DNA from: Candidatus Omnitrophota bacterium
Lineage (GTDB): Bacteria > Omnitrophota > Gorgyraeia > Duberdicusellales > 4484-171
Direction of reading: 5' to 3'
Length of the DNA: 64,000 nucleotides
NCBI GenBank assembly: GCA_016935525.1
Contig: JAFGQU010000017.1
Span: 73,559-137,558 of the forward strand
Part shown: positions 5,412 through 56,901 of the stretch, piece by piece
How positions within the stretch are numbered: position 1 is the stretch's first letter
How the letters are laid out: each line of letters begins with the position of its first letter
Translations under genes and position numbers: made by a program
Notes under the pieces: model-generated
The model's input: only the letters and a program-made list of their open reading frames with translations
Told to the model about the DNA's origin: nothing
Databases searched by the model: none

Positions 5412-5517
5412 GCGGCATCGTAATGAGTAACGCGTAATGCGTACCCCGTAAAAACTACAAAGACCGATTATTTTGGACGCGTTTCGCGTTACGCAGAACA
5501 CGTTACGTCTCTCGAGT

Positions 5518-5598: not shown

Positions 5599-6020
5599 AG
5601 CGGCATAGTCCTTACGGACTGATTTTCAAATAAAACGGGTACCCTCAAAGAACAGTTTTTCTTCTGGGATCCGCCTCCTGCGGATGCCTTTCCTCATCAC
5701 TTTCTCACTCAAGAGCGAGGTGATTCGTATGCCGCTTCATGGGGACTCTGTCCCCTCTGACGCGGCTCTCGGAGATTTTTCAAAGAAGAGACGCCCTCGC
5801 GCCGCTGTCTCCCCTGAGGTAAAAGCAGAGAAGAAAAACTATTCATACGCAGCGCGCGGGACTACCCCGAAGACTCTCAAAGAAGAAAATTTCTCTAACC
5901 GCTGACCGCTGACCGCTTTACGCTATTCAAAGTTCTCGCCTCGGCGGTTTCCTTTTTCAAATAGCTTCTATTTTCTCTTAACGCGTTCCGCGTTACGCAT
6001 ATCGCGTTACGTATATTCAA

Positions 6021-7947: not shown

Positions 7948-8141
7948 ACTTAACTCCTCCTCATACCATCTCGATAGTTATTCGGGTACGTTTATCCCGA
8001 CACGATAAAACTCCGGCCTTTAAGCCGGAGATGAAAACGCTGGTCGGGATTCCGCTCCTGCGGAATCATAAAGAGAAACCACGGGCTTTTCCGTAACCTT
8101 ATTGTTTTTATCCCGGAATGTCCGGGATAGCCCGTGGAGCT

Positions 8142-10961: not shown

Positions 10962-11864
10962 ATGAACGCGGGTATTATCGGTGTCGGGAATCTTGGTTCG
11001 ATCCATCTCCGTATCTTAAGAGGCATAAAATCCGTCAAAAAAATCTATCTGGTCGATATAGATCCAGGGAAACTTCACGCGTATCCCGAAGATAAGCTTT
11101 CCGATTACCGCCAACTGAACGGTAAAGTGGACTTTGTCATCGTTGCCGTACCGACCAGCCTCCACTACCCGATCTCAAGATTTTTTCTTGAACACAAGAT
11201 CCCGGTACTGGTAGAGAAACCGCTTACCAACCGTCTGAATGAGGCGAAATCACTCATCCATCTGGCAAAAAAGCATCACACCCTTCTTGAAGTCGGACAT
11301 GTCGAACGTTATAATAATGCCCTGATCTCTTCAAAAAAGTTCATCAAATCGCCGCGATTCATCGAATGCCACCGTCTGAGCCCGTACCCCTGGCGTTCAC
11401 TGGATATAGGAGTAGTCCTCGACCTGATGATCCACGATCTTGATATCATCCTGGATATCGTAAAAGATAAAGTAAAAAAGATCGAAGCGGTAGGAGTCAA
11501 CGTCCTGTCCGGATATGAGGATATCGCCAATGCCCGGCTCACTTTTTCAAAAGGCTGTATTGCCAATATCACCGCATCGCGCATCTCTCACGAAAGATTG
11601 CGGAAATTCCGGGTATTTTCTCAAAATTCCTACCTCTCGCTGGATTATGCCAACCAGAAAGTCGACATCTACCGCAAAGAAAGCAACCGGATCGAGAAAA
11701 AATCTCTAGACATCAAAAAAGGCGAATCGCTTAAAAACGAAGACAGTGAATTCGTTCAATCGGTAAAACGCAAGATGTTTTCTCTTTCGTCCTGCAATAA
11801 AGCGATGGATGCCCTTGCTCTTGCCTTGAAAATACAGAAAATAATCGCTAAATCCACGTCATGA
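10962..11864 (+). CDS. Gfo/Idh/MocA-family NAD(P)-dependent oxidoreductase (possibly a GnnA-like UDP-GlcNAc 3-dehydrogenase)
   Basis: N-terminal Rossmann motif GIIGVGNLGSIH and an EKPL motif typical of the Gfo/Idh/MocA family. The 4-nt overlap with lpxB suggests co-transcription. Confidence 0.7.
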   Translation: MNAGIIGVGNLGSIHLRILRGIKSVKKIYLVDIDPGKLHAYPEDKLSDYRQLNGKVDFVIVAVPTSLHYPISRFFLEHKIPVLVEKPLTNRLNEAKSLIHLAKKHHTLLEVGHVERYNNALISSKKFIKSPRFIECHRLSPYPWRSLDIGVVLDLMIHDLDIILDIVKDKVKKIEAVGVNVLSGYEDIANARLTFSKGCIANITASRISHERLRKFRVFSQNSYLSLDYANQKVDIYRKESNRIEKKSLDIKKGESLKNEDSEFVQSVKRKMFSLSSCNKAMDALALALKIQKIIAKSTS

Positions 11865-13000
11865 AAAAGATCGTATTCGTTGCCGGAGATAAATCGGGAG
11901 ATGTATACGCCGGGCTCCTAAGTCAGGAGCTAAAAGAGCAGTTCAAAAACAATATCGCCATTTATTCTTTCGGGGGAGAATCGCTCGCCCAGCATTCTCA
12001 GCAATTATTGGACCTTGTCAAACATTCAGTCTCCGGGATCTTCGAAGTCGCCCGTCATTTCCGGGAAATACTGAACGTATTTCGCTTCATTTTAGACCGT
12101 ATCCGCCAGTTAAAACCGGACTTGGTCATCCTGGTCGATTTTCCCGATTTTAATCTGCGCCTGGCAAAAGAACTGCACGGAAAATTTCCGCTTTTCTATT
12201 ACATCAGTCCGCAGGTGTGGGCCTGGCGAAAGAAACGCGTGCATGATATCAAAAAGTTTGTCGAAAAGATCATTGTGCTTTTTGAATTTGAAGAAAGGTT
12301 ATATCGACAAGCCGGAGTCGATGTGTGTTATTTTGGACATCCTCTCCTTGAAATCATCGCCAGGGGACTCCCCTCTGATCCACCGCAAAGTACGCCGGAT
12401 AATACTATCCTCCTTATGCCGGGCTCACGAAAAAATGAGATCGCCAGGCATTTGCCGGTAATGCTTTCGGCAAAAAAGATCATTGAGAAACAACTTCCCG
12501 ATTATCGGTTTAAAATCGTCCGGCCGGAAAATATTCCCGAACATTTTTATCTTTCGATGATGCCCTGTTCTCTACCGATGATAAGACATTCTTATCAAGA
12601 CATGGCCGGCGCCCGGTTCATCATCACTTCATCAGGTACCGCGACTTTGGAAATAGCTATTTTAGGCACTCCGTTTTTGATCATCTACAAAGTCAATCTG
12701 GCGACCTGGGTAATCCTGAAAAATATTGTACATATCGATTTTATCGGGATGCCTAATATAATCGCCGGCAAAGAAATCGCTAAAGAACTGGTACAATTTC
12801 AGGCGACCCCTACACAGATCGCATCATTTACTCTTAAAATGCTCCGGGATGAGAATGCTTATTTGAATATTAAACATGAATTACAGGCGATAAAAGACCG
12901 CCTCCGCCCTCAATCGGCTCTTACCAATACCGCAGGTTTTCTGGGAAAATATCTGGGACTTAAACAAAGTCACACGTCACACGACACACGACACACGTAA
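11861..13000 (+). CDS. lpxB: Lipid-A-disaccharide synthase
   Basis: GT19-family homology over its length (FVAGDKSGDVYAG, ISPQVWAWR, PGSRKNEI). The last ~9 codons (SHTSHDTRHT) are encoded by the GTCACA repeat cluster. Confidence 0.88.
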   Translation: MKKIVFVAGDKSGDVYAGLLSQELKEQFKNNIAIYSFGGESLAQHSQQLLDLVKHSVSGIFEVARHFREILNVFRFILDRIRQLKPDLVILVDFPDFNLRLAKELHGKFPLFYYISPQVWAWRKKRVHDIKKFVEKIIVLFEFEERLYRQAGVDVCYFGHPLLEIIARGLPSDPPQSTPDNTILLMPGSRKNEIARHLPVMLSAKKIIEKQLPDYRFKIVRPENIPEHFYLSMMPCSLPMIRHSYQDMAGARFIITSSGTATLEIAILGTPFLIIYKVNLATWVILKNIVHIDFIGMPNIIAGKEIAKELVQFQATPTQIASFTLKMLRDENAYLNIKHELQAIKDRLRPQSALTNTAGFLGKYLGLKQSHTSHDTRHT

Positions 13001-13087
13001 GCCTGCTTTGCAGGCTTGTCACACGTCACATGTATTATTCTTCACGTGTGACTCTGTGACTATGTGACCTTGTGACCATGTGACCAT
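12969..13087. repeat. GTCACA/TGTGAC oligonucleotide-repeat composite element with a central GC hairpin, between convergent lpxB and mnmG
   Basis: Left arm is an array of GTCACAcg/gacacacg units. The central hairpin is AAGCCTGC-TTT-GCAGGCTT at 12999-13017. The right arm carries inverted units (cacgTGTGACtcTGTGACtaTGTGACctTGTGACcaTGTGACc). It probably also acts as a bidirectional terminator. Confidence 0.8.
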
Positions 13088-14909
13088 GGGTTTTGCCTTT
13101 TTGGGCTTTGACGATGTACGTATACATGATCATTACCGCGGCCGGAGTGATTCCGCTGATCGCTAACGCGTGCCCGAGCGTAGCCGGGCCAAACGCCTGA
13201 AGTTTTTCTTTTATTTCCGCCGAAAGCGAAGGGATAGATTTAAAATCAAAATCGGCCGGGATTTTGATCCGATCCATATTTTTGAGTTCTTCAGCCTGTA
13301 GAGCCTGACGGCGGATAAACGTATCATATTTTACCAGAATCTCGATCTCCCGCCGTAAAGACGGATCCGTGACTTTAAACGGGATCCTATCCTGTAATTG
13401 TTCGAAACCGACTTGCGGCCGCTTCAAATATTCAAACAGGCTTATCCGGCCCCTGTTCTCGATGAGTACGGTCTCGGTCTTAAGTACCTGCAAAGCTTTC
13501 TTTAACTGTATTTCTTTTTCTCTCAAAACCGAAAGTTCCTCTTTCCCCACTAACCCTAATTTTCCGGCAATCGCGAGTAAACGCATATCGGCGTTCGATT
13601 CCCGTAAAGAAAGACGAAATTCCGAACGGGAAGTGAACATCCGATAAGGTTCATCCGTACCGCAGCGAGTAAGGTCATCGATCAATACGCCGATAAGCGC
13701 TTGGTCACGCCTCAGGATAAACGGGTTTTGTCTTTTAATATTTAAAGCCGCGTTAATACCGGCGATTACTCCCTGAGACGCAGCTTCTTCATATCCGGTA
13801 GTACCGTTTACCTGTCCGGCAAAAAATAGCCCTTTTACCGATTTCGCCTCCAGAGTAGGATACAGTTGACGGGCATCGATCACGCCATGTTCGATGCCAT
13901 AACCGGGACGCATCAACACCGCCTGCTCTAACCCGTCAATAGTACGGATAAATTTTTCCTGGACATCAAACGGCAAAGAAGTAGACACCCCGTTAGGATA
14001 GATCTCTATCGAATCGAATCCTTCCGGCTCGATAAACACCTGATGCCGGTCGCGGTCACCGAACCGTACGATTTTATCTTCCAGGGAAGGACAGTAACGG
14101 ACCCCCCGGGCTTTGATCCGACCGGAATATAGCGGCGACCGAGAAAGGTTTTTACGAATGATCTGGTGAGTCCGCTTATTGGTATGGGTGATATAACAGC
14201 TCAATTGCCGGGAGGGAAGGCCCCGGGTATGCCGGGAAAACGGTTCTACATCGTATTCGGGCTTCTGTTCCGTCATTTTCGAAAAATCCAGAGTACGTTT
14301 ATCTAACCGGGCACAAGTCCCGGTCTTAAAATGTTTCGTTTTAAAACCAAGGCGTTTGATGTTTTTGAAAAGGTCATCGGAGGAAAGTTCATATAACCGC
14401 CCCCCGGAGAAACTTTCCAGCCCGATATGGAGAGTGCTCCTCAAAAAAGTGCCCGCGCATATGATCACCTGCCGGGCTTCGATCACCTGGCCGAAATTTG
14501 TGACTATTCCGGTAACTTTTTTATTCTTTGCTAAAATATCGTGTACCTGGACTTGCAGGATCTCGATGTTCTTTTGACGTTCAAGGTGTGTGCGGGCGGC
14601 TTCAGGATAACGAAACCGGTCGACCTGAGCCCGGGTCGACCACACCGCTTTACCTTTACTTTTGTTCAAACAACGGTATCCTATCGCGCACTCATCGGCA
14701 AGGCGGCCGATAAGTCCGCCGAGAGCATCTACTTCCCTGACCAGATGGCCTTTCGATACCCCGCCTACGGCAGGATTACAGGAAAGTTTGCCTATAGTAT
14801 CCAGGCCTAACGTCACCAGCAATACCGAAACATCAAGCTTTGCCGCAGCATAGACCGCTTCAATCCCGGCATGCCCACCTCCGACGACTATCACGTCCCA
14901 ACGTTTCAT
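13035..14909 (-). CDS. mnmG: tRNA uridine 5-carboxymethylaminomethyl modification enzyme MnmG (GidA)
   Basis: FAD-binding N-terminus (DVIVVGGGHAGIEA) and full-length GidA homology. The C-terminal ~18 aa (THGHMVTRSHSHRVTREE) are encoded by the TGTGAC repeat arm. Confidence 0.92.
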   Translation of the reverse strand: MKRWDVIVVGGGHAGIEAVYAAAKLDVSVLLVTLGLDTIGKLSCNPAVGGVSKGHLVREVDALGGLIGRLADECAIGYRCLNKSKGKAVWSTRAQVDRFRYPEAARTHLERQKNIEILQVQVHDILAKNKKVTGIVTNFGQVIEARQVIICAGTFLRSTLHIGLESFSGGRLYELSSDDLFKNIKRLGFKTKHFKTGTCARLDKRTLDFSKMTEQKPEYDVEPFSRHTRGLPSRQLSCYITHTNKRTHQIIRKNLSRSPLYSGRIKARGVRYCPSLEDKIVRFGDRDRHQVFIEPEGFDSIEIYPNGVSTSLPFDVQEKFIRTIDGLEQAVLMRPGYGIEHGVIDARQLYPTLEAKSVKGLFFAGQVNGTTGYEEAASQGVIAGINAALNIKRQNPFILRRDQALIGVLIDDLTRCGTDEPYRMFTSRSEFRLSLRESNADMRLLAIAGKLGLVGKEELSVLREKEIQLKKALQVLKTETVLIENRGRISLFEYLKRPQVGFEQLQDRIPFKVTDPSLRREIEILVKYDTFIRRQALQAEELKNMDRIKIPADFDFKSIPSLSAEIKEKLQAFGPATLGHALAISGITPAAVMIMYTYIVKAQKGKTHGHMVTRSHSHRVTREE

Positions 14910-20095: not shown

Positions 20096-20524
20096 TTATT
20101 TTGAAAGGATCTCCAACGCTTTATCGTTATTGTCCGATGAGAAAATAATCGAAGCCTCATTCTGAGAACTTGACGTAGACCCGTAGATGTATTTTAAATC
20201 GACTCCCGCATTCTTTAATTTCAACGATATCCCGCACAATTCGCCTACTTTATCCGGCATCTCCACAATCACGACTTCTTTGATCTCAACGGTACACCCA
20301 CTTCCGGTCAACACATCTTTCGCTTTATTATTATCAGAGGTAATAATCCGGAAATAAGCTTTATCATCGACCACATAAGCAGACACCGCACGCACGTTGA
20401 TCGCTTCATCACGCAGCCGTTCGGAAATATCTTCCAGAGTACCTACTTCATTCGGAGCCGTCACGAACAATTCATTACCTTTTACCGCTTTCACACTACA
20501 CCTTCCTTTCTTCCAAAGGGTCAC
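20096..20524 (-). CDS. Tandem ACT-domain small-molecule-binding protein
   Basis: Two ~65-aa beta-alpha-beta-beta-alpha-beta ACT-like repeats (VTAPNEVGTLEDISERL... and VEMPDKVGELCGISLKL...). Confidence 0.6.
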   Translation of the reverse strand: MTLWKKGRCSVKAVKGNELFVTAPNEVGTLEDISERLRDEAINVRAVSAYVVDDKAYFRIITSDNNKAKDVLTGSGCTVEIKEVVIVEMPDKVGELCGISLKLKNAGVDLKYIYGSTSSSQNEASIIFSSDNNDKALEILSK

Positions 20525-20730
20525 ATAGACACATAGTCACACGTATGCCTTCGGCAAGTCACAAGGTCACATAGTCACATGGTCACACGTGAATAAAAAT
20601 ACGTGTGTCATGTGACGTGTAACGTGTGACTGCCTGCGTAGCAGGCGTTCGTGTGACGTGCTTACCCCGTTGCGCAAGCTCACGGGGTGTCGTGTGACTA
20701 GCCGGACGATAGACCGGCGTGTGACCTTCC
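20515..20730. repeat. Largest GTCACA/TGTGAC repeat cluster (~215 bp) with embedded GC hairpins
   Basis: The left arm is gtcacatag/acacatag/tcacacgt/gtcacaag/gtcacatag/tcacatgg/tcacacgtg (period 8-9 nt). The right arm is tgtgac units with hairpins GCCTGCgtaGCAGGC, CCCCGttgcgcaagctcaCGGGG and CCGGacgatagaCCGG. The 25-mer gtcacatagacacatagtcacacgt recurs identically at 24279. Confidence 0.85.
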
Positions 20731-20732
20731 AT

Positions 20733-21032
20733 TTACATATCCAATAATTTTCTCGCGCCGTCTTTAGAAAGAGCTTTTTTGAAATCTTCAAAATCAATAA
20801 ACGAACACCGCGGATGTTTCTGGCAGAAACGGATAAGGACATTGGCATCAACCTTACGGCGAAACCCCACATATTTGAAAAAAGCCCGGCATTGAGGGCA
20901 CGCATCAAGATTGAGGTCAAGCCCGATGGCATGACAATGATAACATTCCGCCGATAACTCGCCTACCACCATCAGATGCTGTTCGATATCTTTTATGTCG
21001 GCTTCCTGCCAGATACGTAAGAAGGCCTTCAT
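20733..21032 (-). CDS. Small Cys-rich (zinc-ribbon-like) hypothetical protein
   Basis: A 99-aa protein with CYHCH...CPQC plus further Cys/His residues (FCQKHPRC) and no recognised family. It overlaps the LOG gene by 4 nt. Confidence 0.45.
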   Translation of the reverse strand: MKAFLRIWQEADIKDIEQHLMVVGELSAECYHCHAIGLDLNLDACPQCRAFFKYVGFRRKVDANVLIRFCQKHPRCSFIDFEDFKKALSKDGARKLLDM

Positions 21033-22038: not shown

Positions 22039-22122
22039 CGCCTCCTTTTTTATGTACAGTTCATAGTGCCAACAGGTATATTATGTTATTATACCGGAAA
22101 TACCGCTTGCCGCAAGAAGTTA

Positions 22123-22216
22123 GTCAATGGTCGATAGTCCATAGACGATAGAGAATATACTACAGACTATGGACAATTGACTACGGTCTATGACTATGGT
22201 CCACGGACTATGGACT
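22123..22216. repeat. CTATGGAC/GTCCATAG oligonucleotide-repeat cluster
   Basis: The left arm is gtcaatgGTCgATAGTCCATAGacgatag. The right arm is CTATGGACaattgactacggtCTATGaCTATGGtCcacggaCTATGGAC. Arm orientations are inverted. Confidence 0.8.
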
Positions 22217-22228
22217 TTATCCCCCACC

Positions 22229-22277
22229 CAAAAAAGACAAAAAAATACCCCTGGAAAATGAATGTTTCCAGGGGTAT
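22229..22277 (-). terminator. Rho-independent terminator downstream of the outer-membrane-protein gene
   Basis: A perfect hairpin ATACCCCTGG-(13 nt)-CCAGGGGTAT is followed on the minus strand by a U-run (plus-strand aaaaaagacaaaaaaat). Confidence 0.75.
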
Positions 22278-22292
22278 AAAACTTCTCTATAC

Positions 22293-23621: not shown

Positions 23622-24199
23622 ACCTCCTTCTTAAGGTACACGTGTGTTCTCCAAGGTATTTATTGCTAACAAGGTAATTAGGCCTTGAAATTCTCTAAAA
23701 CCAATCTATAGTTATATCACCCACTGTGTAGACAATTTCCGGTCGAAATTTTGTGTGTTTGGGATTTTCCTCACCTCCTTTCGTTCGGGGATTGAAACTG
23801 TCTGCGGATGGTATAACCTTAATTTAATTAAGGCTTTCCCTTTTAAACCAAGTCAAAGAACTAAATATTATATTAAATTATAACTAAAACAGTTTTAACA
23901 AAAAACGTACTTATTGTCAAGATATTTTTTGGCGGATACCTCTATCCCTAGCGACCTGCCCCCCATAACCACTATATATCGCTGAGGCAACTGTTTTTTT
24001 CCCTAAAACAATACTCTTTGGCGCCGGCACACATAGATCCCGACGCCTGATTTCAATGATTAAAGAGAGATTACGGTGATTAAAACCCCCAATATCCATC
24101 ATGTCAATCTCTACACGGAAGCGCTTTCACCATTGGCGTGGACACTCCTCCCCGCCTTTTCCTACGCGTTACGCAGAACGCACGACGCGTTACGAGAAG

Positions 24200-24272: not shown

Positions 24273-24278
24273 AAGCAA

Positions 24279-24376
24279 GGTCACATAGACACATAGTCAC
24301 ACGTTGAAAAAAAACCGTCATTAAGATGGTTAAACCATATACCGACGTGTGACCTTGTGACATGTGTCGTGTGACG
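24279..24376. repeat. GTCACA/TGTGAC repeat cluster between tRNA-Arg and apt
   Basis: ggtcacatagacacatagtcacacgt ... cgtgtgaccttgtgacatgtgtcgtgtgacg. It shares an identical 25-mer with the 20515 cluster. Confidence 0.85.
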
Positions 24377-24380
24377 TTGT

Positions 24381-30951: not shown

Positions 30952-31876
30952 TATAGATCTCTAAAGTAGACAATTGCCCTGCCAAAAACGTCCGCACGTT
31001 CTCTATTCCCATCACAAAAAACGCGGTCGCCAGGCTGTCGGCAGTCGTCGCATTGCCGGCGACGACACTTACGCTCAAAATATTATTTTCGACCGGCATC
31101 CCGGTGCGAGGATCTATTAAATGAGAAAATCTTTTTCCGTTATACCGGAAAAACTGTTCATAGCTACCGGAAGTCGCGACCGATTCATCATACAAGAACA
31201 GCGGAATAATGACCCCTTCGGTTTCGCGCGGATCTTTGATGCCGACTTGCCATAATCTCTTAAAATTTCTGCCCAGACAGTATAGATCTCCTCCCGCGTT
31301 GATCAGCGCGCTGTCAATGCCCTCTTTTTTTAATCGCTGCACCGCTTTATCGACCATATATCCTTTGGCAATACCACCGACATCGATACTCATCCCTTCA
31401 CCCGTCAACATCAAGGTATTATTCTGCTCATCAATGACAATCCGGTCTATCCCTCCGGCATTTTTGGCTTTATCTATTTCTTCGGCTCCGGGGAATTGGA
31501 TGATTTCTTTATTATTTATTTTGCTTTTCCAAAATTGATAAAGATTACCTTTGCTCACATCAAAATAGCCTTGAGTCAGAGTGTATGCATTTTTCGCCAG
31601 TTTCATCAATTCAATCAATTCGGGAGCGACTTTAATCGGTTGATTATGACTATGGTTGACCCGGTAAAGGTCCGACCCGGACAGGTATCCGTTAAGGATC
31701 CCGTCTAACCTTTTAAACTCACCGGCGACCAGACTCCCCGCTTCCTTGTAAGGAGAAACGACACTGATCACGGTTCCCGCGGCAACGAATTTGTCGCGGT
31801 ATACCGGCGCGGCGAAATCTTTACAGGCCCATGTATACATACAGATCAACCCTAAAAGAATTATTTTTTTAACCAT
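30905..31876 (-). CDS. apbE: FAD:protein FMN transferase (ApbE family) lipoprotein
   Basis: Signal/lipobox-like N-terminus and ApbE motifs (DVGGIAKGYMVDKA, GGDLY, ATSGSYEQ). Confidence 0.85.
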   Translation of the reverse strand: MVKKIILLGLICMYTWACKDFAAPVYRDKFVAAGTVISVVSPYKEAGSLVAGEFKRLDGILNGYLSGSDLYRVNHSHNQPIKVAPELIELMKLAKNAYTLTQGYFDVSKGNLYQFWKSKINNKEIIQFPGAEEIDKAKNAGGIDRIVIDEQNNTLMLTGEGMSIDVGGIAKGYMVDKAVQRLKKEGIDSALINAGGDLYCLGRNFKRLWQVGIKDPRETEGVIIPLFLYDESVATSGSYEQFFRYNGKRFSHLIDPRTGMPVENNILSVSVVAGNATTADSLATAFFVMGIENVRTFLAGQLSTLEIYIVAQTEKGPEIYVFR

Positions 31877-33582
31877 TTCAACAGCTCCCCTTTAGGCCAG
31901 CAATTAAGAATATCTTCTTTTTCCAACCACCCTCGACGAGCGACAAAAACTCCGTATTTCATATTCTGCAACTGCCGGAGGCTATGGCTGTCGGACCCTA
32001 AAGCGATTTTTATTCCGGCGGTTTTTGCCGCCCGGCAATGGATATCATCGAGATCTAACCGTTGAGGAAAACAATTAAGTTCCAACGCGACCTGATAATC
32101 GGCGGCAACTTTAAAAATCTCTTTATAATCTATCTCATATCCCGGTCGTAACCCCATGAGCCGTCCGGTAGGATGCGCAATGATATTCACATGTTTATCC
32201 TTACAGGCTGCCACGATACGTTTGGTAAGCTGGGTTTTGGTTTGTTTAAATCCTCCATGGATCGCGGCAATAACCACATCAAAGCCGGAGAGCACATCAG
32301 GAGGATAATCCAGAGTACCGTCGCTGTGTATATCGACTTCAGCCCCCGAAAGTATCTGTATTTTTTTGTGGTTACGGTTTACTTTTTTTATCTCGTCTAT
32401 TTTCTTACGTACTTGGGCAGGATCAAGCCCCCCGGCGATCTTAAGCCCCTGAGAATGATCGACCACGGCAATATATTCGTACCCAAGAGCCTCGCCGCCG
32501 GCGGCTATGTCGGAGATACTGGCTTTTCCGTCGCTATATTCGGAATGGACATGAAGATCGCCGTATACATCTTTTAACCGGATAAGGCGAGGGAGATGTT
32601 TTGCTAAAGCCGCCTCGATCTCTCCGGTATCCTCTCTTAATTCGGGAGCGATATGCTGCATATCAAAAAAACCGAAGATACGTTCCTCGTCTCTGCTGAT
32701 TTTTTCTTTTTTGGTCTCTTCCTGGGCAAACACTCCGTATTCGTTGATCTTATATCCTCGCTTGATCGCCAGTTGCCTCAATTTAATATTGAACGCTTTG
32801 GAACCGGTAAAGTAAATCAACGCCGCGCCGAAAGAATCTTTATCGACTACCCGCAGGTCGACCTGCAGGCCATGTTCCCGTTCGATGACCGATGTTTTCG
32901 TCAAACCCTTTGCCTGGACCTGTTTCACAAAATCGAGACCGACACACTCATCCATCACCGCTTTAGGTTTTTTTGAGACGACCAGGAGGTCGATATCTTT
33001 TACCGTTTCTTTTCGGCGGCGCAACGACCCGGCGATTTCGGCCGCCGCGACGTATTTGACGGCTTTCACTTTTGCCAAGATCTTCTCGGCCAAAGGTAAC
33101 GCGACTCCCAGAAGGGTCGTTTTTGCCGATTGTCTTACATGAGCGATCCCTTCTAAAATATTTTTCTGAGTTTTCTCTCTTATTCCGGGAAGAGTCATGA
33201 TGGCGCCACCCCGGACAGCTTCTTCCAGCTTAGCCAGGCTATCTATTCCCAGTGAATCGTAAAATAATTTGACAGTCCGGGGGCCAAGCCCGGGAATAGT
33301 CAACATCTCCAGCACACCTTCAGGGACTCCCTTTTTCAATTCCTGATATTTCTTTAACGTACCGGTTTTGATGATCTCCTGAATCTTTTCGGCGAGATCT
33401 TTTCCGATACCGGGAAGCTCCCGTAACGTGTCGTTTTCGGCCAGGGTTTCGATGTCTTCGGATAACCCTTCGATGATCCGGCCGGCTTTTTCATAAGCCC
33501 GGATCCGGAACACGTTTTCGCCTTTTATTTCAAGTATCTTAGCGATCTCTTTGAATATACCGGCCACCGTTTTGTTATCCAT
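31861..33582 (-). CDS. polX: DNA polymerase X family protein with C-terminal PHP phosphoesterase domain
   Basis: Pol-beta-like N-terminus with helix-hairpin-helix motifs (GIFKEIAKILEIKGENVFRIRAYEKAGR, LPGIGKDLAEKI) and a PHP domain (HVHSEYSDG...HPTGR). Confidence 0.88.
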   Translation of the reverse strand: MDNKTVAGIFKEIAKILEIKGENVFRIRAYEKAGRIIEGLSEDIETLAENDTLRELPGIGKDLAEKIQEIIKTGTLKKYQELKKGVPEGVLEMLTIPGLGPRTVKLFYDSLGIDSLAKLEEAVRGGAIMTLPGIREKTQKNILEGIAHVRQSAKTTLLGVALPLAEKILAKVKAVKYVAAAEIAGSLRRRKETVKDIDLLVVSKKPKAVMDECVGLDFVKQVQAKGLTKTSVIEREHGLQVDLRVVDKDSFGAALIYFTGSKAFNIKLRQLAIKRGYKINEYGVFAQEETKKEKISRDEERIFGFFDMQHIAPELREDTGEIEAALAKHLPRLIRLKDVYGDLHVHSEYSDGKASISDIAAGGEALGYEYIAVVDHSQGLKIAGGLDPAQVRKKIDEIKKVNRNHKKIQILSGAEVDIHSDGTLDYPPDVLSGFDVVIAAIHGGFKQTKTQLTKRIVAACKDKHVNIIAHPTGRLMGLRPGYEIDYKEIFKVAADYQVALELNCFPQRLDLDDIHCRAAKTAGIKIALGSDSHSLRQLQNMKYGVFVARRGWLEKEDILNCWPKGELLKWLKK

Positions 33583-34101: not shown

Positions 34102-34160
34102 ACCGAGATTTCTCTTATCCAGCGGGACCCCGCTGTATAAAAATATTATGGAACGGGGAA

Positions 34161-34296
34161 GTCACATAGTCACATATAAATGTTCAATGCACATTTAGCA
34201 ATTAGCAATGGACAATGAAAGATTCCAGGATGATAGATTATCCTCTCTGAGTTTCCTCATTGCTAAATGATAATTGCTAATTGACAATTGATAATT
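34161..34296. repeat. Mixed GTCACA and TTAGCAAT/ATTGCTAA repeat cluster between queF and recO
   Basis: gtcacatagtcacat, then ttagcaattagcaatggacaatg and the inverted arm cattgctaaatgataattgctaattgacaattgataatt. Confidence 0.8.
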
Positions 34297-34316
34297 TTCA
34301 CTCACCGCGCTCATAT

Positions 34317-38316: not shown

Positions 38317-39702
38317 TTATTTTTCTGGTTTTTCCTTTATGCTAAGATTTAATTCATCTAATTGACGCTGTCCGACTCCCGAGGGAGCTTCCGTCAACGG
38401 ACATATTCCTTTTTGCGTTTTAGGAAACGCGATCACTTCCCGGATACTTTCACAACCGGTAATAATACTATACAAACGATCGAGCCCCACGGCAAGCCCT
38501 CCGTGCGGCGGGGCCCCGTATTCGAATGCCCGCAGGAGATGGGCGAATTTCTGTTGTGCTTCTTCGGCCGTCAACCCTATTGACGAGAAGATCTTCTGCT
38601 GAAGGTCCCGGGAATGAATCCGGATCGAACCGCTGGCGATCTCGACCCCGTTTAATACCAAGTCATACGCGCGGGACCGGATGTTTTTCATGTCTTTCCC
38701 TAACAGAGCGATATCTTCCTCTTTCGGTGCAGTAAACGGATGGTGAGCGGAATTCCAACGGCCTTCTTCTTCATTATACTCAAAAAGAGGGAAATCACAT
38801 ACCCATAAAAACCGGTATTGCCCCTGGCCGATATCCGGCTTATCCGATTGATGGGTTGCCATCGCTTCCTGATAGGAAATACGCGTAAAAGGAATCGTAA
38901 GGTCTATCCCTAACGCTTCTTTAAAAACGAATCGGAACATCTCTTCCACCAGTTTAAACAGGTCTTCTTCACTCACAAACGATGCTTCGATATCGAGTTG
39001 AGTGAATTCCGGTTGACGGTCCCGGCGCAAATCCTCATCCCGGAAACAACGGGCGATCTGATAGTACCGGTCAAACCCGGATACCATCAGGATCTGTTTA
39101 AACAGCTGAGGAGATTGCGGTAACGCATAAAACATTCCCGGATTGATCCGTGAAGGTACCAGAAAATCACGGGCCCCTTCCGGAGTCGATTTCGTCAAAA
39201 ACGGAGTCTCGACTTCTAAAAAGCGTTCTCTATTCAGGAATTCTCTGAACTTATAATTCAGTTTATCCCTGATGATGAATTTTTCTAACATCGTACTGCG
39301 ACGCAGGTCCAGATAACGATGGAGCAATTTTATCTCTTCCGACACCTCAATAGTATCTTCGATCTGAAACGGCAAGTCTTTTGAGGAATTTAAGATTTCC
39401 AGGTTATGAGTAAACAACTCCACCAGTCCCGTGGGTATCTTGGGGTTTTCGGTTTTTGCCGGACGGACATTGACCTCACCGGTGATCCTCACCACATCCT
39501 CACATTTAAGTTGTTTTGCCGTTTCATAGGCGGCCGGATACGGTTTAGGAGTAATCACCACCTGAGTGAACCCGTACCGGTCGCGGATATCGATGAAAAT
39601 CAATTTGCCATGGTCCCGGCGGGCTGCGACCCATCCGCACAAGATCACGGTTTGCCCGATATTGTCTTCAGTTAATTCTCCACAGGTATGAGTACGTAAC
39701 AT
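38317..39702 (-). CDS. aspS: Aspartate--tRNA ligase, compact form lacking the bacterial GAD insertion
   Basis: N-terminal OB anticodon-binding domain. Class-II motifs are present (FYALPQSPQLFKQILMVSGFDRYYQIARCFRDEDLRRDRQPEFTQLD, GGLAVGLDRL). At 461 aa it is much shorter than the ~590 aa of GAD-containing AspRS. Confidence 0.85.
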   Translation of the reverse strand: MLRTHTCGELTEDNIGQTVILCGWVAARRDHGKLIFIDIRDRYGFTQVVITPKPYPAAYETAKQLKCEDVVRITGEVNVRPAKTENPKIPTGLVELFTHNLEILNSSKDLPFQIEDTIEVSEEIKLLHRYLDLRRSTMLEKFIIRDKLNYKFREFLNRERFLEVETPFLTKSTPEGARDFLVPSRINPGMFYALPQSPQLFKQILMVSGFDRYYQIARCFRDEDLRRDRQPEFTQLDIEASFVSEEDLFKLVEEMFRFVFKEALGIDLTIPFTRISYQEAMATHQSDKPDIGQGQYRFLWVCDFPLFEYNEEEGRWNSAHHPFTAPKEEDIALLGKDMKNIRSRAYDLVLNGVEIASGSIRIHSRDLQQKIFSSIGLTAEEAQQKFAHLLRAFEYGAPPHGGLAVGLDRLYSIITGCESIREVIAFPKTQKGICPLTEAPSGVGQRQLDELNLSIKEKPEK

Positions 39703-39720
39703 TTTTTTATTCCTTTTTAC

Positions 39721-39765
39721 TACGCAGATGACCGCAGATTCAAAAATCCGCAGATGATCGCAGAT
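39721..39765. repeat. CGCAGAT direct-repeat cluster (x4) between aspS and hisS
   Basis: aCGCAGATgacCGCAGATtcaaaaatcCGCAGATgatCGCAGATgg. Confidence 0.8.
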
Positions 39766-39780
39766 GGCGTAACTGTTATT

Positions 39781-44765: not shown

Positions 44766-44769
44766 TTAC

Positions 44770-44862
44770 TAGCGTTTAGCGGTGAGCGTATAGCGTCTAG
44801 ACGAAAAAAGAAAAAGATATTTGTATTTCTCTAATCGCTAATCCCTATCCGCTGACCGCTAC
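44770..44862. repeat. TAGCG / CCGCTGACCGCT oligonucleotide-repeat cluster between dnaE and guaA
   Basis: cTAGCGttTAGCGgtgAGCGtaTAGCGtcTAGacg ... ctaatcgctaatccctatCCGCTGACCGCTac. The CCGCTGACCGCT word also occurs at 5896-5913. Confidence 0.7.
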
Positions 44863-44866
44863 TTTA

Positions 44867-46405: not shown

Positions 46406-46410
46406 CTTCA

Positions 46411-46438
46411 GTCTCTGGTCTCTGGTCTCTGGTCTCTG
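46411..46438. repeat. Perfect tandem heptamer (TCTCTGG)x4 immediately upstream of the guaA start codon
   Basis: cag-TCTCTGG-TCTCTGG-TCTCTGG-TCTCTGG-tttt. It ends 5 nt from the guaA ATG, which is on the minus strand at 46405. A related tctctggtct word occurs upstream of rnhB at ~51118. Confidence 0.85.
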
Positions 46439-46480
46439 GTTTTACACTAAATACCGAAGACTATCGACTAGTAACGTTCT

Positions 46481-47641: not shown

Positions 47642-47670
47642 CTCTTACCTCCTTATGCTTTACTCTTTTA

Positions 47671-47819
47671 TTGAAATACGGTGGAAATATGCTCGACTTC
47701 GTTTCGCGAAATATATTGAAATACAATTGTCCTGCCCATACCTTCATCAATATATTTCCATTGTATTTCCAGGAGTTCTTCGTTGTCGCTCTTCTTATTT
47801 CAACTGTATTTCCATATTT
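47671..47819. repeat. GAAATAY / RTATTTC oligonucleotide-repeat cluster
   Basis: Left arm: ttGAAATACggtgGAAATATgc...cGAAATAtattGAAATACaattg. Right arm: atATATTTCcattGTATTTCcagg...TATTTCaactGTATTTCcatatttg. Arm orientations are inverted. Confidence 0.75.
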
Positions 47820-47835
47820 GATTAAAGGGAATAGT

Positions 47836-50537: not shown

Positions 50538-51105
50538 TCATAAAACTTCTGCGATGAAACGGGGTAGGGAGCGCCTTTTGAAGCAATTCCCGATGTTCCT
50601 TAGTGGGATACCCTTTGTGCCCGGAAAAATTCCATTGGGGATAAAGGAAATCAAGCATATGCATAAAATGATCCCGGGTGACTTTGGCGATAATCGAAGC
50701 GCTGGAAACCTCACCCACCGTTACATCGGCTTTTTTCACGCAACGATAATGGATATTCAAATCCGTACGGAAAATCGGTCCGTCAATGATAAATTCCGCA
50801 TCTTTAAGAAAAGGATACGCGCCCATTAACTTTTGAATTGCCCGGTTAAATGCGATCATTGTCGCCTCAAGGATATTATGTTCGTCTATCTCCCCGGCGC
50901 TCGCAAAACTCACCGCATAATTTCCTTTTACACAAAGTATTTCAAAGAGCTTTTCTCTTTGCCCTGCCGAAAGTTTTTTAGAATCTTTTACCCGTGGGAC
51001 GTCCTCTGTATCTTTAAAAAAGAACGCACAGGCGACCACCGGTCCGCATAACGGGCCACGCCCGGCCTCATCTAACCCCACAATGATTCGTCGTTCACTC
51101 CTCAT
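50521..51105 (-). CDS. rnhB: Ribonuclease HII
   Basis: The RNase HII catalytic N-terminus IVGLDEAGRGPLCGPVV is present with full-length homology. Confidence 0.92.
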   Translation of the reverse strand: MRSERRIIVGLDEAGRGPLCGPVVACAFFFKDTEDVPRVKDSKKLSAGQREKLFEILCVKGNYAVSFASAGEIDEHNILEATMIAFNRAIQKLMGAYPFLKDAEFIIDGPIFRTDLNIHYRCVKKADVTVGEVSSASIIAKVTRDHFMHMLDFLYPQWNFSGHKGYPTKEHRELLQKALPTPFHRRSFMSAHEV

Positions 51106-51107
51106 CA

Positions 51108-51226
51108 GTCATTAGTCTCTGGTCTTTAGTATCTAGCTTGAGATATTCCATAATTAAACTTTCTAATATCTCCCATCCCTCTTCTTTTTTCTTTTACTAT
51201 CGACTACAGACTGTCGACTATCGACC
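51108..51226. repeat. TCTCTGGTCT / TCGACTATCGAC oligonucleotide-repeat cluster between rnhB and rplS
   Basis: agtcattagTCTCTGGTCTttagtatctagc ... CTATCGACtacagactgTCGACTATCGACc. Confidence 0.6.
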
Positions 51227-51228
51227 GT

Positions 51229-51925: not shown

Positions 51926-51984
51926 AAAAAAATGTCAAGGGTCAAATTCCACTACAGATTTTCATTCGCTTATGCTCTAAAAAT

Positions 51985-52728: not shown

Positions 52729-52731
52729 TTC

Positions 52732-53862
<1,131 letters not shown>

Positions 53863-54090: not shown

Positions 54091-54092
54091 CT

Positions 54093-56796: not shown

Positions 56797-56807
56797 ACTA
56801 CTAGAGG

Positions 56808-56899
56808 GTCACACGCCTGCCTGACGGCAGGCTAGTCACACGACACACGTCACACGTCTTTTTTACATGTGACCTTGTGACTTTGTGACATTGTGACAT
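56808..56899. repeat. GTCACA/TGTGAC repeat cluster with central GCCTGC-loop-GCAGGC hairpin, in the 105-bp infB-trpS spacer
   Basis: ggGTCACAcGCCTGCctgacgGCAGGCtaGTCACAcgacacacGTCACAcgtctttttta-caTGTGACctTGTGACttTGTGACatTGTGACat. Confidence 0.85.
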
Positions 56900-56901
56900 A
56901 T

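What the first reader, a model, noticed from the sequence alone, without database searches (positions are those of the whole stretch)
20515..20730. Genome-wide family of intergenic oligonucleotide-repeat clusters occupying the spacers between housekeeping genes
At least twelve intergenic spacers in this 64-kb window are filled by 40-215-bp clusters. Each is built from a 6-9-nt word repeated in direct arrays on one side and as its reverse complement on the other, often around a GC hairpin of the form GCCTGC-loop-GCAGGC. Locations: 12969-13087, 20515-20730, 22123-22216, 24279-24376, 34161-34296, 39721-39765, 44770-44862, 46411-46438, 47671-47819, 51108-51226, 56808-56899, plus the short 5896-5913. 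Different loci use different words: GTCACA/TGTGAC at five loci, CTATGGAC, TTAGCAAT, CGCAGAT, TAGCG/CCGCTGACCGCT, TCTCTGG and GAAATAY. Exact long words are shared between distant loci. The 25-mer gtcacatagacacatagtcacacgt is at both 20515 and 24279. CCGCTGACCGCT is at 5896 and 44849. TCTCTGGTCT is at 46411 and 51118. The clusters sit inside normally compact operons (infB|trpS, rnhB|rplS, guaB-like|guaA, aspS|hisS, queF|recO). This is neither CRISPR, since there is no spacer periodicity and no cas genes, nor a classical MITE or IS. It resembles a REP/BIME-like system but with a modular short-word architecture. Possible roles are transcript punctuation or terminators, binding-site arrays for a DNA or RNA-binding protein, or a novel replicative repeat.
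Basis: seen in the sequence. Interest (0 to 1): 0.7.

Follow-up and report, generated by a model that had tools for sequence, protein, structure and literature searches.

The report
Hairpin-forming short-word repeats between Omnitrophota genes
Many gaps between housekeeping genes in this Omnitrophota genome are filled by 40-215-base elements made of a 7-8-base word repeated in a row and then repeated as its mirror complement, so each gap folds into one hairpin; it is a real dispersed repeat family, closest to the old and still unexplained cyanobacterial 'STRR' repeats rather than a new kind of system.

Summary
GTCACA occurs 48 times against 13 expected. Thirty-four copies lie in five spacers, always a GTCACA array followed by a TGTGAC array. 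All the shared long words were found where stated. Nine of the twelve loci have the inverted layout; three (5896, 39721, 46411) are direct-only.

Most clusters fold far better than shuffles (z -3 to -7). In every cluster-bearing spacer the fold closes almost from the upstream stop to the downstream start.

The organism is a Candidatus Omnitrophota bacterium. In 77 related loci the infB|trpS spacer has a median of 6 nt. Scattered lineages carry a 50-200-nt insert of the same build but with different words. The closest relative has a GTCACA element at the same junction.

The GTCACA elements are homologous through loop and flanks and occur in both orientations. They therefore spread as copies rather than growing independently in place.

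Best reading: a dispersed, self-complementary short-tandem-repeat family, built like STRR and placed like REP. It is tolerated in tight operon junctions because it folds out of the way. Its function is unproven. It is not CRISPR, not a MITE and not a canonical terminator.

Novelty: new variant of a known kind. Interest about 0.5.

The parts
20515..20732 (+). GTCACA-family element C, composite. It fills the whole spacer between the CxxC gene (stop at 20733) and the ACT-domain gene. Order on the + strand: two GTCACANN arrays (period 8) split by hairpin GCCTTCGGC; GTCACACGT; an A-rich loop; CGTGTGW 7-mers; then three GC hairpins (20632-20646 GCCTGCGTAGCAGGC, 20664-20686, 20701-20718), each flanked by CGTGTGAC. 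This orientation is antisense to the flanking genes.
   Evidence: RNA fold -100.9 kcal/mol, z -7.1. DNA fold z -7.9. The outermost helix pairs nt 7-13 with nt 208-214.
12969..13087 (-). GTCACA-family element A, between convergent lpxB and mnmG and overlapping both ORF ends. On the - strand: a period-8 GTCACANN arm, an A-rich loop, a period-7 GTGTGWC arm with nested GCCTGC-AAA-GCAGGC.
   Evidence: z -6.0. 59 nt 88% complementary to 20558-20616, loop included (I1).
24279..24376 (+). GTCACA-family element D. It fills the apt | tRNA-Arg spacer and shares a 26-mer with element C.
   Evidence: D3, D6. z -4.4.
56808..56899 (-). GTCACA-family element B. It fills the infB | trpS spacer, in mRNA sense, with nested GCCTGCCGTCAGGCAGGC. 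trpS, which follows, has no Shine-Dalgarno. An orthologous element is present in the closest relative (L001).
   Evidence: z -6.0.
34161..34296 (.). recO | queF spacer: two GTCACATA units, then TTAGCAAT x2 and GGACAATG, facing the ATTGCTAA/ATTGACAA/ATTGATAA array.
   Evidence: z -2.9.
22123..22216 (.). GTCSATAG array facing a CTATGGAC/CTACGGTC array. It lies downstream of a canonical terminator that follows the porin gene. Its words are related to those at 51196-51225.
   Evidence: I13. Spacer z -4.2.
44770..44862 (.). guaA | dnaE spacer: TAGCGTT-type array facing a CGCTAAT / CCGCTGACCGCT array. dnaE, which follows, has no Shine-Dalgarno.
   Evidence: z -5.5.
51108..51226 (.). rplS | rnhB spacer: TAGTC/TCTCTGG words facing a GACTATCGAC array. 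The fold closes the spacer flush with the stop and the start.
   Evidence: z -3.1.
47671..47819 (.). Oxidoreductase | GuaB3 spacer: 4 GAAATAY followed by 3 RTATTTC. AT-rich, so the fold energy is weak. A strong SD follows the element.
   Evidence: z -1.2.
39721..39765 (.). hisS | aspS spacer: four direct CGCAGAT copies (2 + 2 around an A-rich centre) with no inverted partner. The same word family forms hairpins in the relative's genome (L001 14941-15023, L093 1099-1130).
   Evidence: z -1.8.
46411..46440 (.). (GTCTCTG)x4.3, a perfect direct array 5 nt upstream of the guaA start. Direct only.
   Evidence: D10.
5896..5917 (.). (ACCGCTG)x2.9 direct array in the tRNA-Lys | tRNA-Leu spacer.
5419..5516 (-). 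GTAACGCG-word hairpin in the tRNA-Leu | tRNA-Gly spacer. It belongs to a 32-nt family that follows three of the four tRNA genes; the other copies are at 5989-6020 and 24165-24196.
   Evidence: D4.

Best explanation
These are members of dispersed families of non-coding, self-complementary short-tandem-repeat elements in an Omnitrophota genome.

Anatomy (shown). Each element is an array of a 7-8-nt word, a short loop, and an array of the reverse-complement word. Small GC palindromes of the CCTGCC...GGCAGG type are often nested in one arm.

Dispersal (shown and inferred). The GTCACA family has one common polar plan and is alignable through loop and flanks. It occurs in either orientation. The closest sequenced relative has it at one orthologous junction and at several non-orthologous ones. 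I infer that copies spread between intergenic junctions, by an unknown trans-acting enzyme or by recombination or template switching. Slipped-strand changes in unit number then remodel the copies.

RNA level (inferred). The elements are transcribed as part of operons, and the two arms zip into one closed hairpin spanning stop codon to start codon. This loops the 100-200-nt insert out and keeps the upstream stop next to a downstream start that has no Shine-Dalgarno. That would explain why such inserts are tolerated in junctions that are 0-6 nt long in most relatives. The hairpins may also protect upstream mRNA 3' ends, as REP/BIME hairpins do.

Shown: anatomy, statistics, homology, presence/absence among lineages. 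Inferred: the mode of spread and any RNA-level role.
For: Anatomy and significance.

Common plan of the GTCACA elements:
- One arm has period 8 and the other period 7 (TRF).
- Alignment A2 covers the four window elements plus two from the relative's genome.
- Inter-locus homology through the loop: 59 nt at 88%, 43 nt at 84%, 43 nt at 84% (I1, D6, I2).
- The core hexamer is kept in 112 of 114 positions over 19 units, while the two spacer bases vary freely. This is not uniform decay of a slippage product.

Comparative evidence:
- The GTCACA and CGCAGAT families are present in the relative's genome, GCA_964483625 (IF-2 80% and TrpS 73% identical), at the same infB|trpS junction and at other junctions.
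- Presence/absence: the infB|trpS spacer has a median of 6 nt in 77 Omnitrophota loci. About 15 scattered lineages have 50-200-nt inserts, nearly all word-array hairpins, with different words.
- In 855 kb of loci chosen by a protein, arrays number 65 against 18-22 in controls. Arrays with an inverted partner number 19 against 1-2.

Loop-out reading:
- Every cluster spacer closes end to end, with span 0.78-0.98 and 0-15 unpaired nt in all but recO|queF (45 nt at the 3' end). The span exceeds the shuffle mean in 10 of 10.
- trpS, dnaE, guaA and rnhB lack an SD, although the organism uses AAGGAGG elsewhere.

Multi-copy nature: a short-read contig identical to the window stops inside a cluster.
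Against: - No transposase, RAYT or other mobilising gene was found among the 49 window ORFs scanned. The rest of the genome could not be searched.
- There are no target-site duplications or sharply defined ends.
- No near-identical relative with an empty site was available, so insertion events are inferred from lineages at 55-73% TrpS identity.
- There are no expression data, so every RNA-level role is inference.
- The span test is weak for single loci (p 0.03-0.5).
- Three loci are direct-only and cannot loop out.
- Two cluster-preceded genes do have strong SDs.
- The same architecture, with the same word, also occurs in Bacteroidales, Acidobacteriota, Gemmatimonadota and Verrucomicrobia. That fits a general mutational process at least as well as a lineage-specific mobile element.
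Confidence: 0.5

Rival explanations
1. Purely local mutational by-product. Replication slippage makes 7-8-nt tandem arrays. Template switching within quasi-palindromes copies each change into the other arm. Inverted arrays therefore grow in place in any tolerated spacer, with no dispersal and no function.
For: - Perfect young-looking arrays exist, for example (GTCTCTG)x4.3 at 46411.
- Words differ between loci and between lineages.
- The same architecture appears in unrelated phyla.
- Heptamer units are the commonest long simple-sequence repeats in bacteria, and slippage was proposed for them (Mrazek 2007 as summarised in PMC4679880).
Against: - Homology between loci extends through loops and flanking modules.
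- The two arms keep different periods, 8 and 7, which arm-to-arm copying would erase.
- The hexamer core is nearly invariant while the two spacer bases vary.
- The same word families occur at non-orthologous junctions in a genome whose proteins are only 54-88% identical (mostly 67-88%).
Confidence: 0.15
2. Binding-site arrays. A sequence-specific DNA- or RNA-binding protein, or a small set of them, recognises the words (GTCACA above all). The arrays organise the nucleoid or control mRNA fate.
For: - The core hexamer is conserved against free spacer bases.
- They also occur at the infB|trpS junction of lineages only 56-73% identical in TrpS.
- The centre is often the perfect palindrome GTCACACGTGTGAC.
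Against: - At least seven unrelated words share the same architecture in one 64-kb window.
- Neighbouring genes have no common function.
- An 8-bp period puts successive sites on different faces of B-DNA.
- There is no candidate protein.
- Core conservation is also what pairing of the two arms would give.
Confidence: 0.15
3. Transcription terminators or attenuators that punctuate operons.
For: - The hairpins are strong.
- One element sits between convergent genes, and neither divergent spacer has one.
- STRR hairpins near 3' ends have been discussed as pause or termination sites (PMC2670836).
Against: - Only 12969 has a weak T-rich tail. The consensus scan flags almost none of the clusters.
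- The genome has canonical GC-stem plus T7 terminators, for example 22277-22245, just upstream of a word cluster.
- The clusters lie inside conserved operons (nusA-infB-trpS-scpA-ruvB) and leave no room for a promoter or SD before the next gene.
- Most relatives have a 0-6-nt junction there.
- The convergent/divergent comparison is underpowered.
Confidence: 0.1
4. Assembly or chimeric artefact.
For: Short-read assemblies break at these repeats.
Against: - The same architecture is found in many independent assemblies from NCBI, JGI, ENA and Logan, including chromosome-level records.
- Flanking genes are intact and syntenic.
- The Logan contig is 100% identical over 5193 nt, including half of a cluster.
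Confidence: 0.01

Closest known systems
Cyanobacterial STRR (short tandemly repeated repetitive) sequences
   Same: - Tandem units about 7 nt long in intergenic regions.
- Several word types per genome, each at tens of loci.
- Arrays and their complements in one spacer can form hairpins between co-transcribed genes, for example hupS-hupL. Nostoc csR1.1 TTGTCAG x3 occurs with CCACTGACTACTGAC in the same spacer.
- The function is still unknown; transcript stability, translational coupling and pausing have been proposed (PMC2670836; PMC2408588).
   Different: - A different phylum (Omnitrophota, PVC group) and different words.
- Period 8 in one arm and 7 in the other.
- GC palindromes nested in an arm.
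- The elements fill whole stop-to-start junctions of housekeeping operons in a small genome.
- No sequence relationship was tested or is expected.
REP / BIME / REPIN elements with RAYT transposases (Enterobacteria, Pseudomonas)
   Same: - Dispersed extragenic palindromic repeats inside operons and at convergent gene ends.
- Either orientation, clustered in mosaics.
- No target-site duplication.
- They form mRNA hairpins (PMC3116915 and PMC3733652 abstracts; function from established knowledge).
   Different: - REPs are single 20-40-nt imperfect palindromes with a conserved GTAG or CGTC head, not arrays of 7-8-nt words.
- One or a few families occur per genome.
- A RAYT gene is the defining partner; none was found in the window ORFs scanned, and the rest of the genome could not be searched.
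- The nested CCTGCC...GGCAGG palindrome is the most REP-like part here, but it has no GTAG/CGTC head.
TAACTGA heptamer repeats of Beggiatoaceae, Cyanobacteria and some Bacteroidetes; long simple-sequence repeats in general
   Same: - Intergenic 7-nt tandem arrays of 2-6 copies, often a few nucleotides upstream of start codons that lack canonical ribosome-binding sites.
- Some sit in ribosomal-protein operons.
- Their distribution among lineages is patchy (PMC4679880).
- The direct-only arrays at 46411 and 39721 fit this pattern.
   Different: - There, one word dominates and arrays are direct (169 direct sets, one indirect).
- Here there are many words, and most loci pair the array with its complement.
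MIRU (mycobacterial interspersed repetitive units). Comparison from my own knowledge, not checked here.
   Same: Repeats inserted in intercistronic junctions of operons in a way that preserves translational coupling.
   Different: MIRUs are 40-100-bp units that preserve coupling through small ORFs overlapping the flanking stop and start. Hairpin closure is not involved.
Eukaryotic foldback (FB) transposons. Comparison from my own knowledge, not checked here.
   Same: Long inverted arms that are themselves built of short tandem repeats.
   Different: They are eukaryotic, kilobase scale, and associated with a transposase.

Membership tests
CRISPR array | Identical direct repeats of about 23-50 nt separated by unique spacers of similar length | tested here: not met
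   Units are 7-8 nt, head to tail or separated by 1-2 nt. No longer periodic family was found.
CRISPR array | Associated cas genes | tested here: not met
   No cas family among the 49 window ORFs scanned against NCBIfam or Pfam. The rest of the genome was not available.
MITE | Uniform-length copies with defined terminal inverted repeats and flanking target-site duplications | tested here: not met
   Lengths run from 40 to 215 nt. The ends are simply the outermost words. Flanks extend the palindrome rather than forming direct duplications.
MITE | Related autonomous IS or transposase in the genome | not testable with these tools
   None in the scanned window ORFs. The whole genome was not retrievable: the exact-protein look-up gave only a 5.2-kb contig.
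REP/REPIN-RAYT | A 20-40-nt imperfect palindrome with a conserved GTAG or CGTC head | tested here: not met
   The arms are word arrays. The nested GC palindromes read GCCTGC...GCAGGC with no GTAG/CGTC head. The criterion comes from the PMC3733652 abstract.
REP/REPIN-RAYT | A RAYT (Y1 transposase) gene flanked by the repeats | not testable with these tools
   No Y1_Tnp hit among the scanned window proteins. The genome was not available.
REP/REPIN-RAYT | High-copy extragenic dispersal in both orientations, within operons | tested here: met
   Five GTCACA loci in 64 kb, two in each orientation (the fifth, 34161-34174, has only two direct units and no scorable orientation), in operon junctions. 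The family is also present in the relative's genome.
STRR / long simple-sequence repeats | Tandem units of about 7 nt (5-11) in intergenic DNA, longer than chance | tested here: met
   TRF gives periods 7 and 8. 7 arrays against 0.18 expected. All lie in spacers.
STRR / long simple-sequence repeats | Several distinct word families per genome, each at multiple loci | tested here: met
   GTCACA at 5 loci; GTAACGCG at 3; CCGCTGA at 2; TCTCTGG at 2; GTCGATAG-type at 2.
STRR / long simple-sequence repeats | Occurrence in heterocystous cyanobacteria (the lineage for which STRR was defined) | tested here: not met
   The best named protein hits are all Candidatus Omnitrophota. Synteny is with Omnitrophota MAGs.
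Intrinsic (Rho-independent) terminator | A GC-rich stem-loop immediately followed by a T/U tract at a transcript end | tested here: not met
   The consensus scan flags only sub-hairpins at 12992-12969, 13076-13089 and 39765-39746. A canonical terminator lies at 22277-22245, outside the word cluster.
Known structured RNA families (Rfam 15) | A match to a curated covariance model | tested here: not met
   Only four tRNAs pass. Nothing at any cluster even at E <= 1.

The most novel reading that the evidence does not exclude
The elements may be a transposase-independent, self-propagating class of repeat whose only requirement is to fold shut. On this reading, Omnitrophota (and, in parallel, some Bacteroidales and Acidobacteriota) tolerate 100-200-nt inserts in translationally coupled junctions because the RNA hairpin brings the upstream stop codon next to an SD-less start codon. 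That would be structural 'splicing-out' that preserves termination-reinitiation. A second version is that the nearly invariant hexamer repeated every 7-8 nt is read by an unknown modular nucleic-acid-binding protein.
Probability: 0.15. Interest if true: 0.75.

Novelty: new variant of a known kind. Interest (0 to 1): 0.5.

Why it matters
Short tandem 7-nt repeats between bacterial genes have been known since about 1990 without a settled function. This window adds an uncultured, small-genome phylum in which the repeats are dense and occupy junctions that are only a few nucleotides long in most relatives. They also have a regular build: an 8-nt arm against a 7-nt arm, nested GC palindromes and end-to-end closure.

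That makes two ideas directly testable with a two-cistron reporter and with metatranscriptomes. The first is whether self-complementarity is what lets an insert survive in a translationally coupled junction. The second is whether the hairpins set mRNA ends.

Practically, these repeats break short-read assemblies of Omnitrophota MAGs. They also create spurious ORFs and C-terminal extensions, as at 20567-20932 and at the end of lpxB.

Tried and rejected
- Exact-protein look-up of TrpS failed because the recorded gene call starts at a different codon. It was solved through the homologue search.
- The convergent versus divergent spacer test for a terminator role was underpowered. There are 2 of each in the window and 10 versus 4 in 892 kb of relatives, because these genomes are almost entirely co-directional there.
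- G-U wobble at unit position 7 was tried as a sign of RNA-level rather than DNA-level pairing. It was inconsistent between elements and was dropped (and inspection).
- Orthologous-junction comparison was possible only for infB|trpS. Other cluster-bearing junctions were not adjacent in 8 or more relatives.
- A tandem 6-mer ranking in unbiased loci asked whether GTCACA is the universal Omnitrophota word. It is not: 3 of 80 loci.
- The end-to-end span test is only suggestive for single loci.
- Literature searches for Omnitrophota/Omnitrophica repeats found nothing relevant. The 'STRR' search was swamped by streptomycin-resistance hits.
- Rfam gave nothing at gathering or at E <= 1.
- Not attempted: structure prediction, the representative-protein search, and plasmid or phage searches. 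None bears on a non-coding repeat.
Full report
**1. What is in the sequence**

The 216 bases at 20515-20730 read as follows:
- two runs of GTCACANN units
- the sequence GTCACACGT
- an A-rich loop
- a run of CGTGTGW 7-mers
- three small GC hairpins, each bracketed by CGTGTGAC

GTCACA occurs 48 times in the window on both strands, against 13.2 +/- 3.8 in dinucleotide-preserving shuffles. Thirty-four of these lie in five spacers: 12969-13084, 20520-20725, 24280-24375, 34161-34174 and 56808-56897. The remaining 14 equal the chance level.

- the 25-mer at 20520 and 24280
- GCCTGC-loop-GCAGGC three times, only inside GTCACA clusters, against none expected
- CCGCTGACCGCT at 5899/5906/44849
- TCTCTGGTCT at 46412-46426 and 51116
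- four GAAATAY followed by three RTATTTC within 47673-47812

Tandem Repeats Finder reports period 7 or 8 arrays at every listed locus except 39721-39765 and 47671-47819. Exact 6-mer arrays (3 or more copies at 6-11 nt spacing) number 7 against 0.18 in Markov-2 simulations.

Three of the twelve loci are direct-only: 5896-5917, 39721-39765 and 46411-46438.

**2. Folding**

On the transcribed (-) strand the spacers fold much better than shuffles:

| Spacer | z |
|---|---|
| 20500-20740 | -7.1 |
| 12960-13095 | -6.0 |
| 56797-56901 | -6.0 |
| 44766-44866 | -5.5 |
| 24273-24380 | -4.4 |
| 22039-22292 | -4.2 |
| 51106-51228 | -3.1 |
| 34102-34316 | -2.9 |
| 39703-39780 | -1.8 (not significant) |
| 46406-46480 | -2.1 (not significant) |
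| 47642-47835 | -1.2 (not significant) |

The tool fold of 20515-20732 gives -100.9 kcal/mol (z -7.1) as RNA and z -7.9 as DNA. Its outermost helix, GGTCACA/TGTGACC, joins nt 7-13 to nt 208-214.

In all ten cluster-bearing co-directional spacers the largest helix spans 78-98% of the spacer. It leaves 0-15 unpaired bases at each end in nine of them; the exception is recO|queF, with 45 at the 3' end. The span exceeds the shuffle mean in 10 of 10, although single-locus p values are only 0.03-0.5. I treat this result as suggestive.

**3. Genes and organism**

Nearly all genes are on the - strand and GC skew is negative throughout.

- infB|trpS
- rplS|rnhB
- GuaB3|guaA
- guaA|dnaE
- hisS|aspS
- recO|queF
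- apt|tRNA-Arg
- convergent lpxB/mnmG

The ORF 20567-20932 that runs through the main cluster has no family and an implausible sequence. The real neighbour is a 99-aa CxxC protein at 20733-21032, so the cluster fills the whole spacer up to the ACT-domain gene.

No transposase, Y1/RAYT or cas gene was found among the 49 window ORFs scanned against NCBIfam or Pfam.

TrpS has a 100% identical copy on a 5.2-kb Logan contig. The next relatives are 73% and 68% identical. All named hits are Candidatus Omnitrophota MAGs.

That Logan contig is 100% identical to window 51661-56853 and stops inside the GTCACA cluster. A multi-copy repeat does exactly this to a short-read assembly.

**4. One family with a common plan**

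TRF gives period 8 for one arm and period 7 for the partner arm in the GTCACA elements:
- 13047-13088 (period 8) against 12969-12998 (period 7)
- 56868-56899 (period 8) against 56835-56858 (period 7)
- 20558-20587 and 24282-24301 (period 8) against 24344-24377 (period 7)

Alignment A2 covers the four window elements plus two from the closest relative's genome. Oriented alike, they share this plan:
- [GTCACANN] x3-5
- GTCACACGT
- an A-rich loop
- CGTGTG(A/T)C 7-mers
- a GC hairpin
- CGTGTGAC

Elements at 12969 and 56808 read this way on the - strand, which is mRNA sense. Those at 20515 and 24279 read this way on the + strand, which is antisense.

Homology between loci runs through loops and flanks:
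- 13018-13076 against 20558-20616: 59 nt, 88% complementary
- 20562-20604 against 24276-24318: 43 nt, 84%
- 20687-20729 against 56804-56846: 43 nt, 84%, with different GC-hairpin stems in the same place

Over 19 period-8 units the hexamer is GTCACA 17 times and GACACA twice, so 112 of 114 core positions are kept. The two spacer bases vary freely.

Other families are also shared between loci:
- 46402-46442 against 51099-51139
- 22123-22151 against 51204-51232
- a 32-nt GTAACGCG family that follows three of the four tRNA genes

These facts argue for copying between loci. Independent growth in place would not give them.

**5. Relatives**

*The closest relative.* L001 (GCA_964483625.1) has IF-2 80% and TrpS 73% identical to the window. 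It has the same gene order and a 160-nt infB|trpS spacer with the same plan: GTCACANN x3, an A-rich loop, CGTGTGAC, two GC hairpins, then GTGTCGTGTGG.

Two other contigs of that assembly are not syntenic with the window. They carry further GTCACA elements and ATCTGCG/CGCAGAT clusters.

*A more distant relative.* L003 (TrpS 68% identical) has the same architecture with other words (AGAGT/ACTCT, CAGAA/TTCTG) in other junctions.

*An unbiased sample.* A metagenome scan with a TrpS alignment gave 80 more Omnitrophota loci, 855 kb in total. In these:
- strict arrays number 65, against 18-22 in Markov-2 controls
- arrays with two or more copies of the complementary word nearby number 19, against 1-2

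*The infB|trpS junction across relatives.*
- Across 77 relatives it has a median of 6 nt (interquartile range -4 to 46).
- In the per-locus listing, about 15 scattered lineages have 50-200 nt.
- About 13 of these are word-array hairpins with different words: AGGYTAAGG/CCTTARCCT, CCAAT/ATTGG, AAAAGT/ACTTTT, GATTACA, AGATGG/ATCT, and GTCACA again in L169 at 56% TrpS identity.

The repeat structure is not an artefact, it is dispensable for the operon, and it was gained repeatedly.

**6. Beyond Omnitrophota**

I scanned one genome per species for GTCACANNGTCACANNGTCACA.
- 16 are labelled Omnitrophota.
- 7 are labelled uncultured Planctomycetia or Planctomycetales. Two of these belong to the same assembly as L001.

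From my own knowledge, Omnitrophota are on the order of 1% of species in that collection. That makes this a strong over-representation, but I did not compute it.

The same array-plus-inverted-array layout, with the same word, also appears in:
- Alistipes, Prevotellaceae and other Bacteroidales (L006, L007, L011, L023, L087, L098)
- Vicinamibacteria and other Acidobacteriota (L009, L025, L090)
- Gemmatimonadota (L017)
- Verrucomicrobia (L018)
- KSB1 (L089)

Many other hits are plain direct microsatellites.

In the unbiased Omnitrophota sample GTCACA is tandem in only 3 of 80 loci. It is therefore a frequent word but not a universal one.

**7. What it is not**

- It matches no Rfam family, at gathering score or at E <= 1.
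- It is not CRISPR: units are 7-8 nt, with no spacers and no cas genes.
- It is not a MITE: lengths vary, there are no target-site duplications, and the flanks extend the palindrome.
- It is not a canonical terminator. The consensus scan flags only sub-hairpins at 12992-12969, 13076-13089 and 39765-39746. The genome does have a textbook terminator at 22277-22245, just upstream of the 22123 cluster.

**8. Translation context**

The organism uses strong Shine-Dalgarno sequences. AAGGAGG precedes rrf, tsf, rpsB, the porin gene, ppdK, GuaB3 and rplS.

The genes that directly follow clusters mostly have none: trpS, dnaE, guaA, rnhB and the ACT gene. aspS has a weak AAGGA. GuaB3 and the DUF4870 gene do have strong SDs.

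The TrpS N-terminus (MEKKRILSGMRPTG) matches the family consensus. The trpS start, 11 nt after the element, is therefore right.

These junctions look like formerly coupled stop/start pairs into which an element has been inserted.

**9. Explanation**

*Most likely (about 0.5).* These are dispersed families of self-complementary short-tandem-repeat elements. They spread as copies into intergenic junctions by an unknown mechanism and are remodelled by slippage. They persist in tight operon junctions because, once transcribed, they fold into one closed hairpin that keeps the stop and the start adjacent. They may also stabilise upstream mRNA, as REP hairpins do.

The anatomy, statistics, homology and phylogenetic patchiness are shown. 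The mode of spread and every RNA-level effect are inferred.

*Rivals.*
- Purely local slippage plus quasi-palindrome template switching (0.15). Loop homology, the 8-versus-7 arm periods and the conserved core weaken it.
- Arrays of sites for a sequence-specific protein (0.15). The conserved core and the recurrence of GTCACA support it. Seven or more words in one window, and functionally unrelated neighbours, weaken it.
- Terminators or attenuators (0.1).
- Artefact (0.01).

**10. Comparison with what is known**

*Closest in build: cyanobacterial STRR sequences.* These are 7-bp tandem units of several types, each at tens of intergenic loci. They form hairpins between co-transcribed genes such as hupS-hupL. 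Their function is unknown; transcript stability, translational coupling and pausing have been suggested (PMC2670836). Table 3 of PMC2408588 shows TTGTCAG x3 together with CCACTGACTACTGAC in one spacer.

*Closest in placement and dispersal: REP/BIME/REPIN.* Their defining features are either not met or untestable here: a single 20-40-nt palindrome, a GTAG/CGTC head and a RAYT partner.

*The direct-only arrays next to start codons.* These resemble the TAACTGA repeats of Beggiatoaceae (PMC4679880).

*Literature.* I found no paper on such repeats in Omnitrophota.

*Verdict.* This is a new variant of a known kind. It is real and significant but not categorically new. Interest is about 0.5.

Noticed in passing
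window 5485-5516, 5989-6020, 24165-24196: A 32-nt family built on GTAACGCG words (75% identity between copies) lies directly downstream of three of the four tRNA genes (tRNA-Leu, tRNA-Lys, tRNA-Arg) and folds into a small hairpin. tRNA-Gly lacks it. It may be a tRNA trailer, processing or termination signal.
   Followed up: partly
window 13001-13015, 20632-20646, 56815-56832; L072 2124, L130 14708, L143 6022, L144 1469, L159 15661, L093 2294, L158 486, L145 247, L160 3475, L001 14970, L024 3275: The nested GC hairpin belongs to a palindromic module CCTGCC-loop-GGCAGG, often CCTGCCTGCCGGCAGGCAGG. It recurs in distant Omnitrophota lineages, either alone in spacers or nested inside clusters of quite different words. 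The strict motif occurs 12 times in 892 kb, against 0-4 in controls. In 638 kb of other phyla it is at control level. This is the most REP-like component.
   Followed up: partly
L006, L007/L109, L011, L023, L087, L098 (Bacteroidales); L009, L025, L090 (Acidobacteriota); L017; L018; L089: The same layout, an 8-nt-period GTCACA array followed by a TGTGAC array and often sitting just after a stop codon, occurs in several other phyla. L007 (Alistipes) even combines ACGCAGA, GTAACGCG and GTCACA words, the same three words seen in this window.
   Followed up: partly
window 22245-22277 (- strand): A canonical intrinsic terminator (13-bp stem, 7-nt loop, T7) lies right after the porin-like gene and just upstream of the 22123-22216 word cluster.
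   Followed up: no
window 5670-5684 and 8051-8064: Two similar GC hairpins, TCCGC-CTCCT-GCGGA and TCCGC-TCCT-GCGGA, whose loop on the mRNA strand reads AGGAG(G). They lie in the tRNA spacer and in the rpsB|tsf spacer. The pattern is only marginally above chance: 7 of 100 shuffles reach 2. The rpsB|tsf spacer 7948-8141 folds strongly (z -5.2) without word arrays.
   Followed up: no
window 20567-20932 (-) and 11861-13000 (+): The repeat clusters create spurious coding calls. A 121-aa ORF reads through the main cluster, and the lpxB ORF runs about 30 nt into the 12969 array before its stop.
   Followed up: partly
L199 (Logan SRR13394437 contig) = window 51661-56853: An independent short-read contig is 100% identical over 5193 nt and terminates inside the infB|trpS GTCACA cluster. 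These repeats fragment MAG assemblies.
   Followed up: yes
window 38317-39702: The aspartyl-tRNA synthetase is 461 aa and matches the 590-position bacterial profile in two stretches. It appears to lack the inserted domain of typical bacterial AspRS.
   Followed up: no
window 31861-33582: A family X DNA polymerase with a PHP domain (HHH_8, DNA_pol_B_thumb, PHP) lies among housekeeping genes. No link to the repeats was tested.
   Followed up: no
window 46411-46440 and 51108-51139: CCAGAGA-type arrays on the mRNA strand end 5-15 nt before SD-less start codons (guaA, rnhB). The two regions are 76% identical over 41 nt, including the start-codon context (D10).
   Followed up: partly
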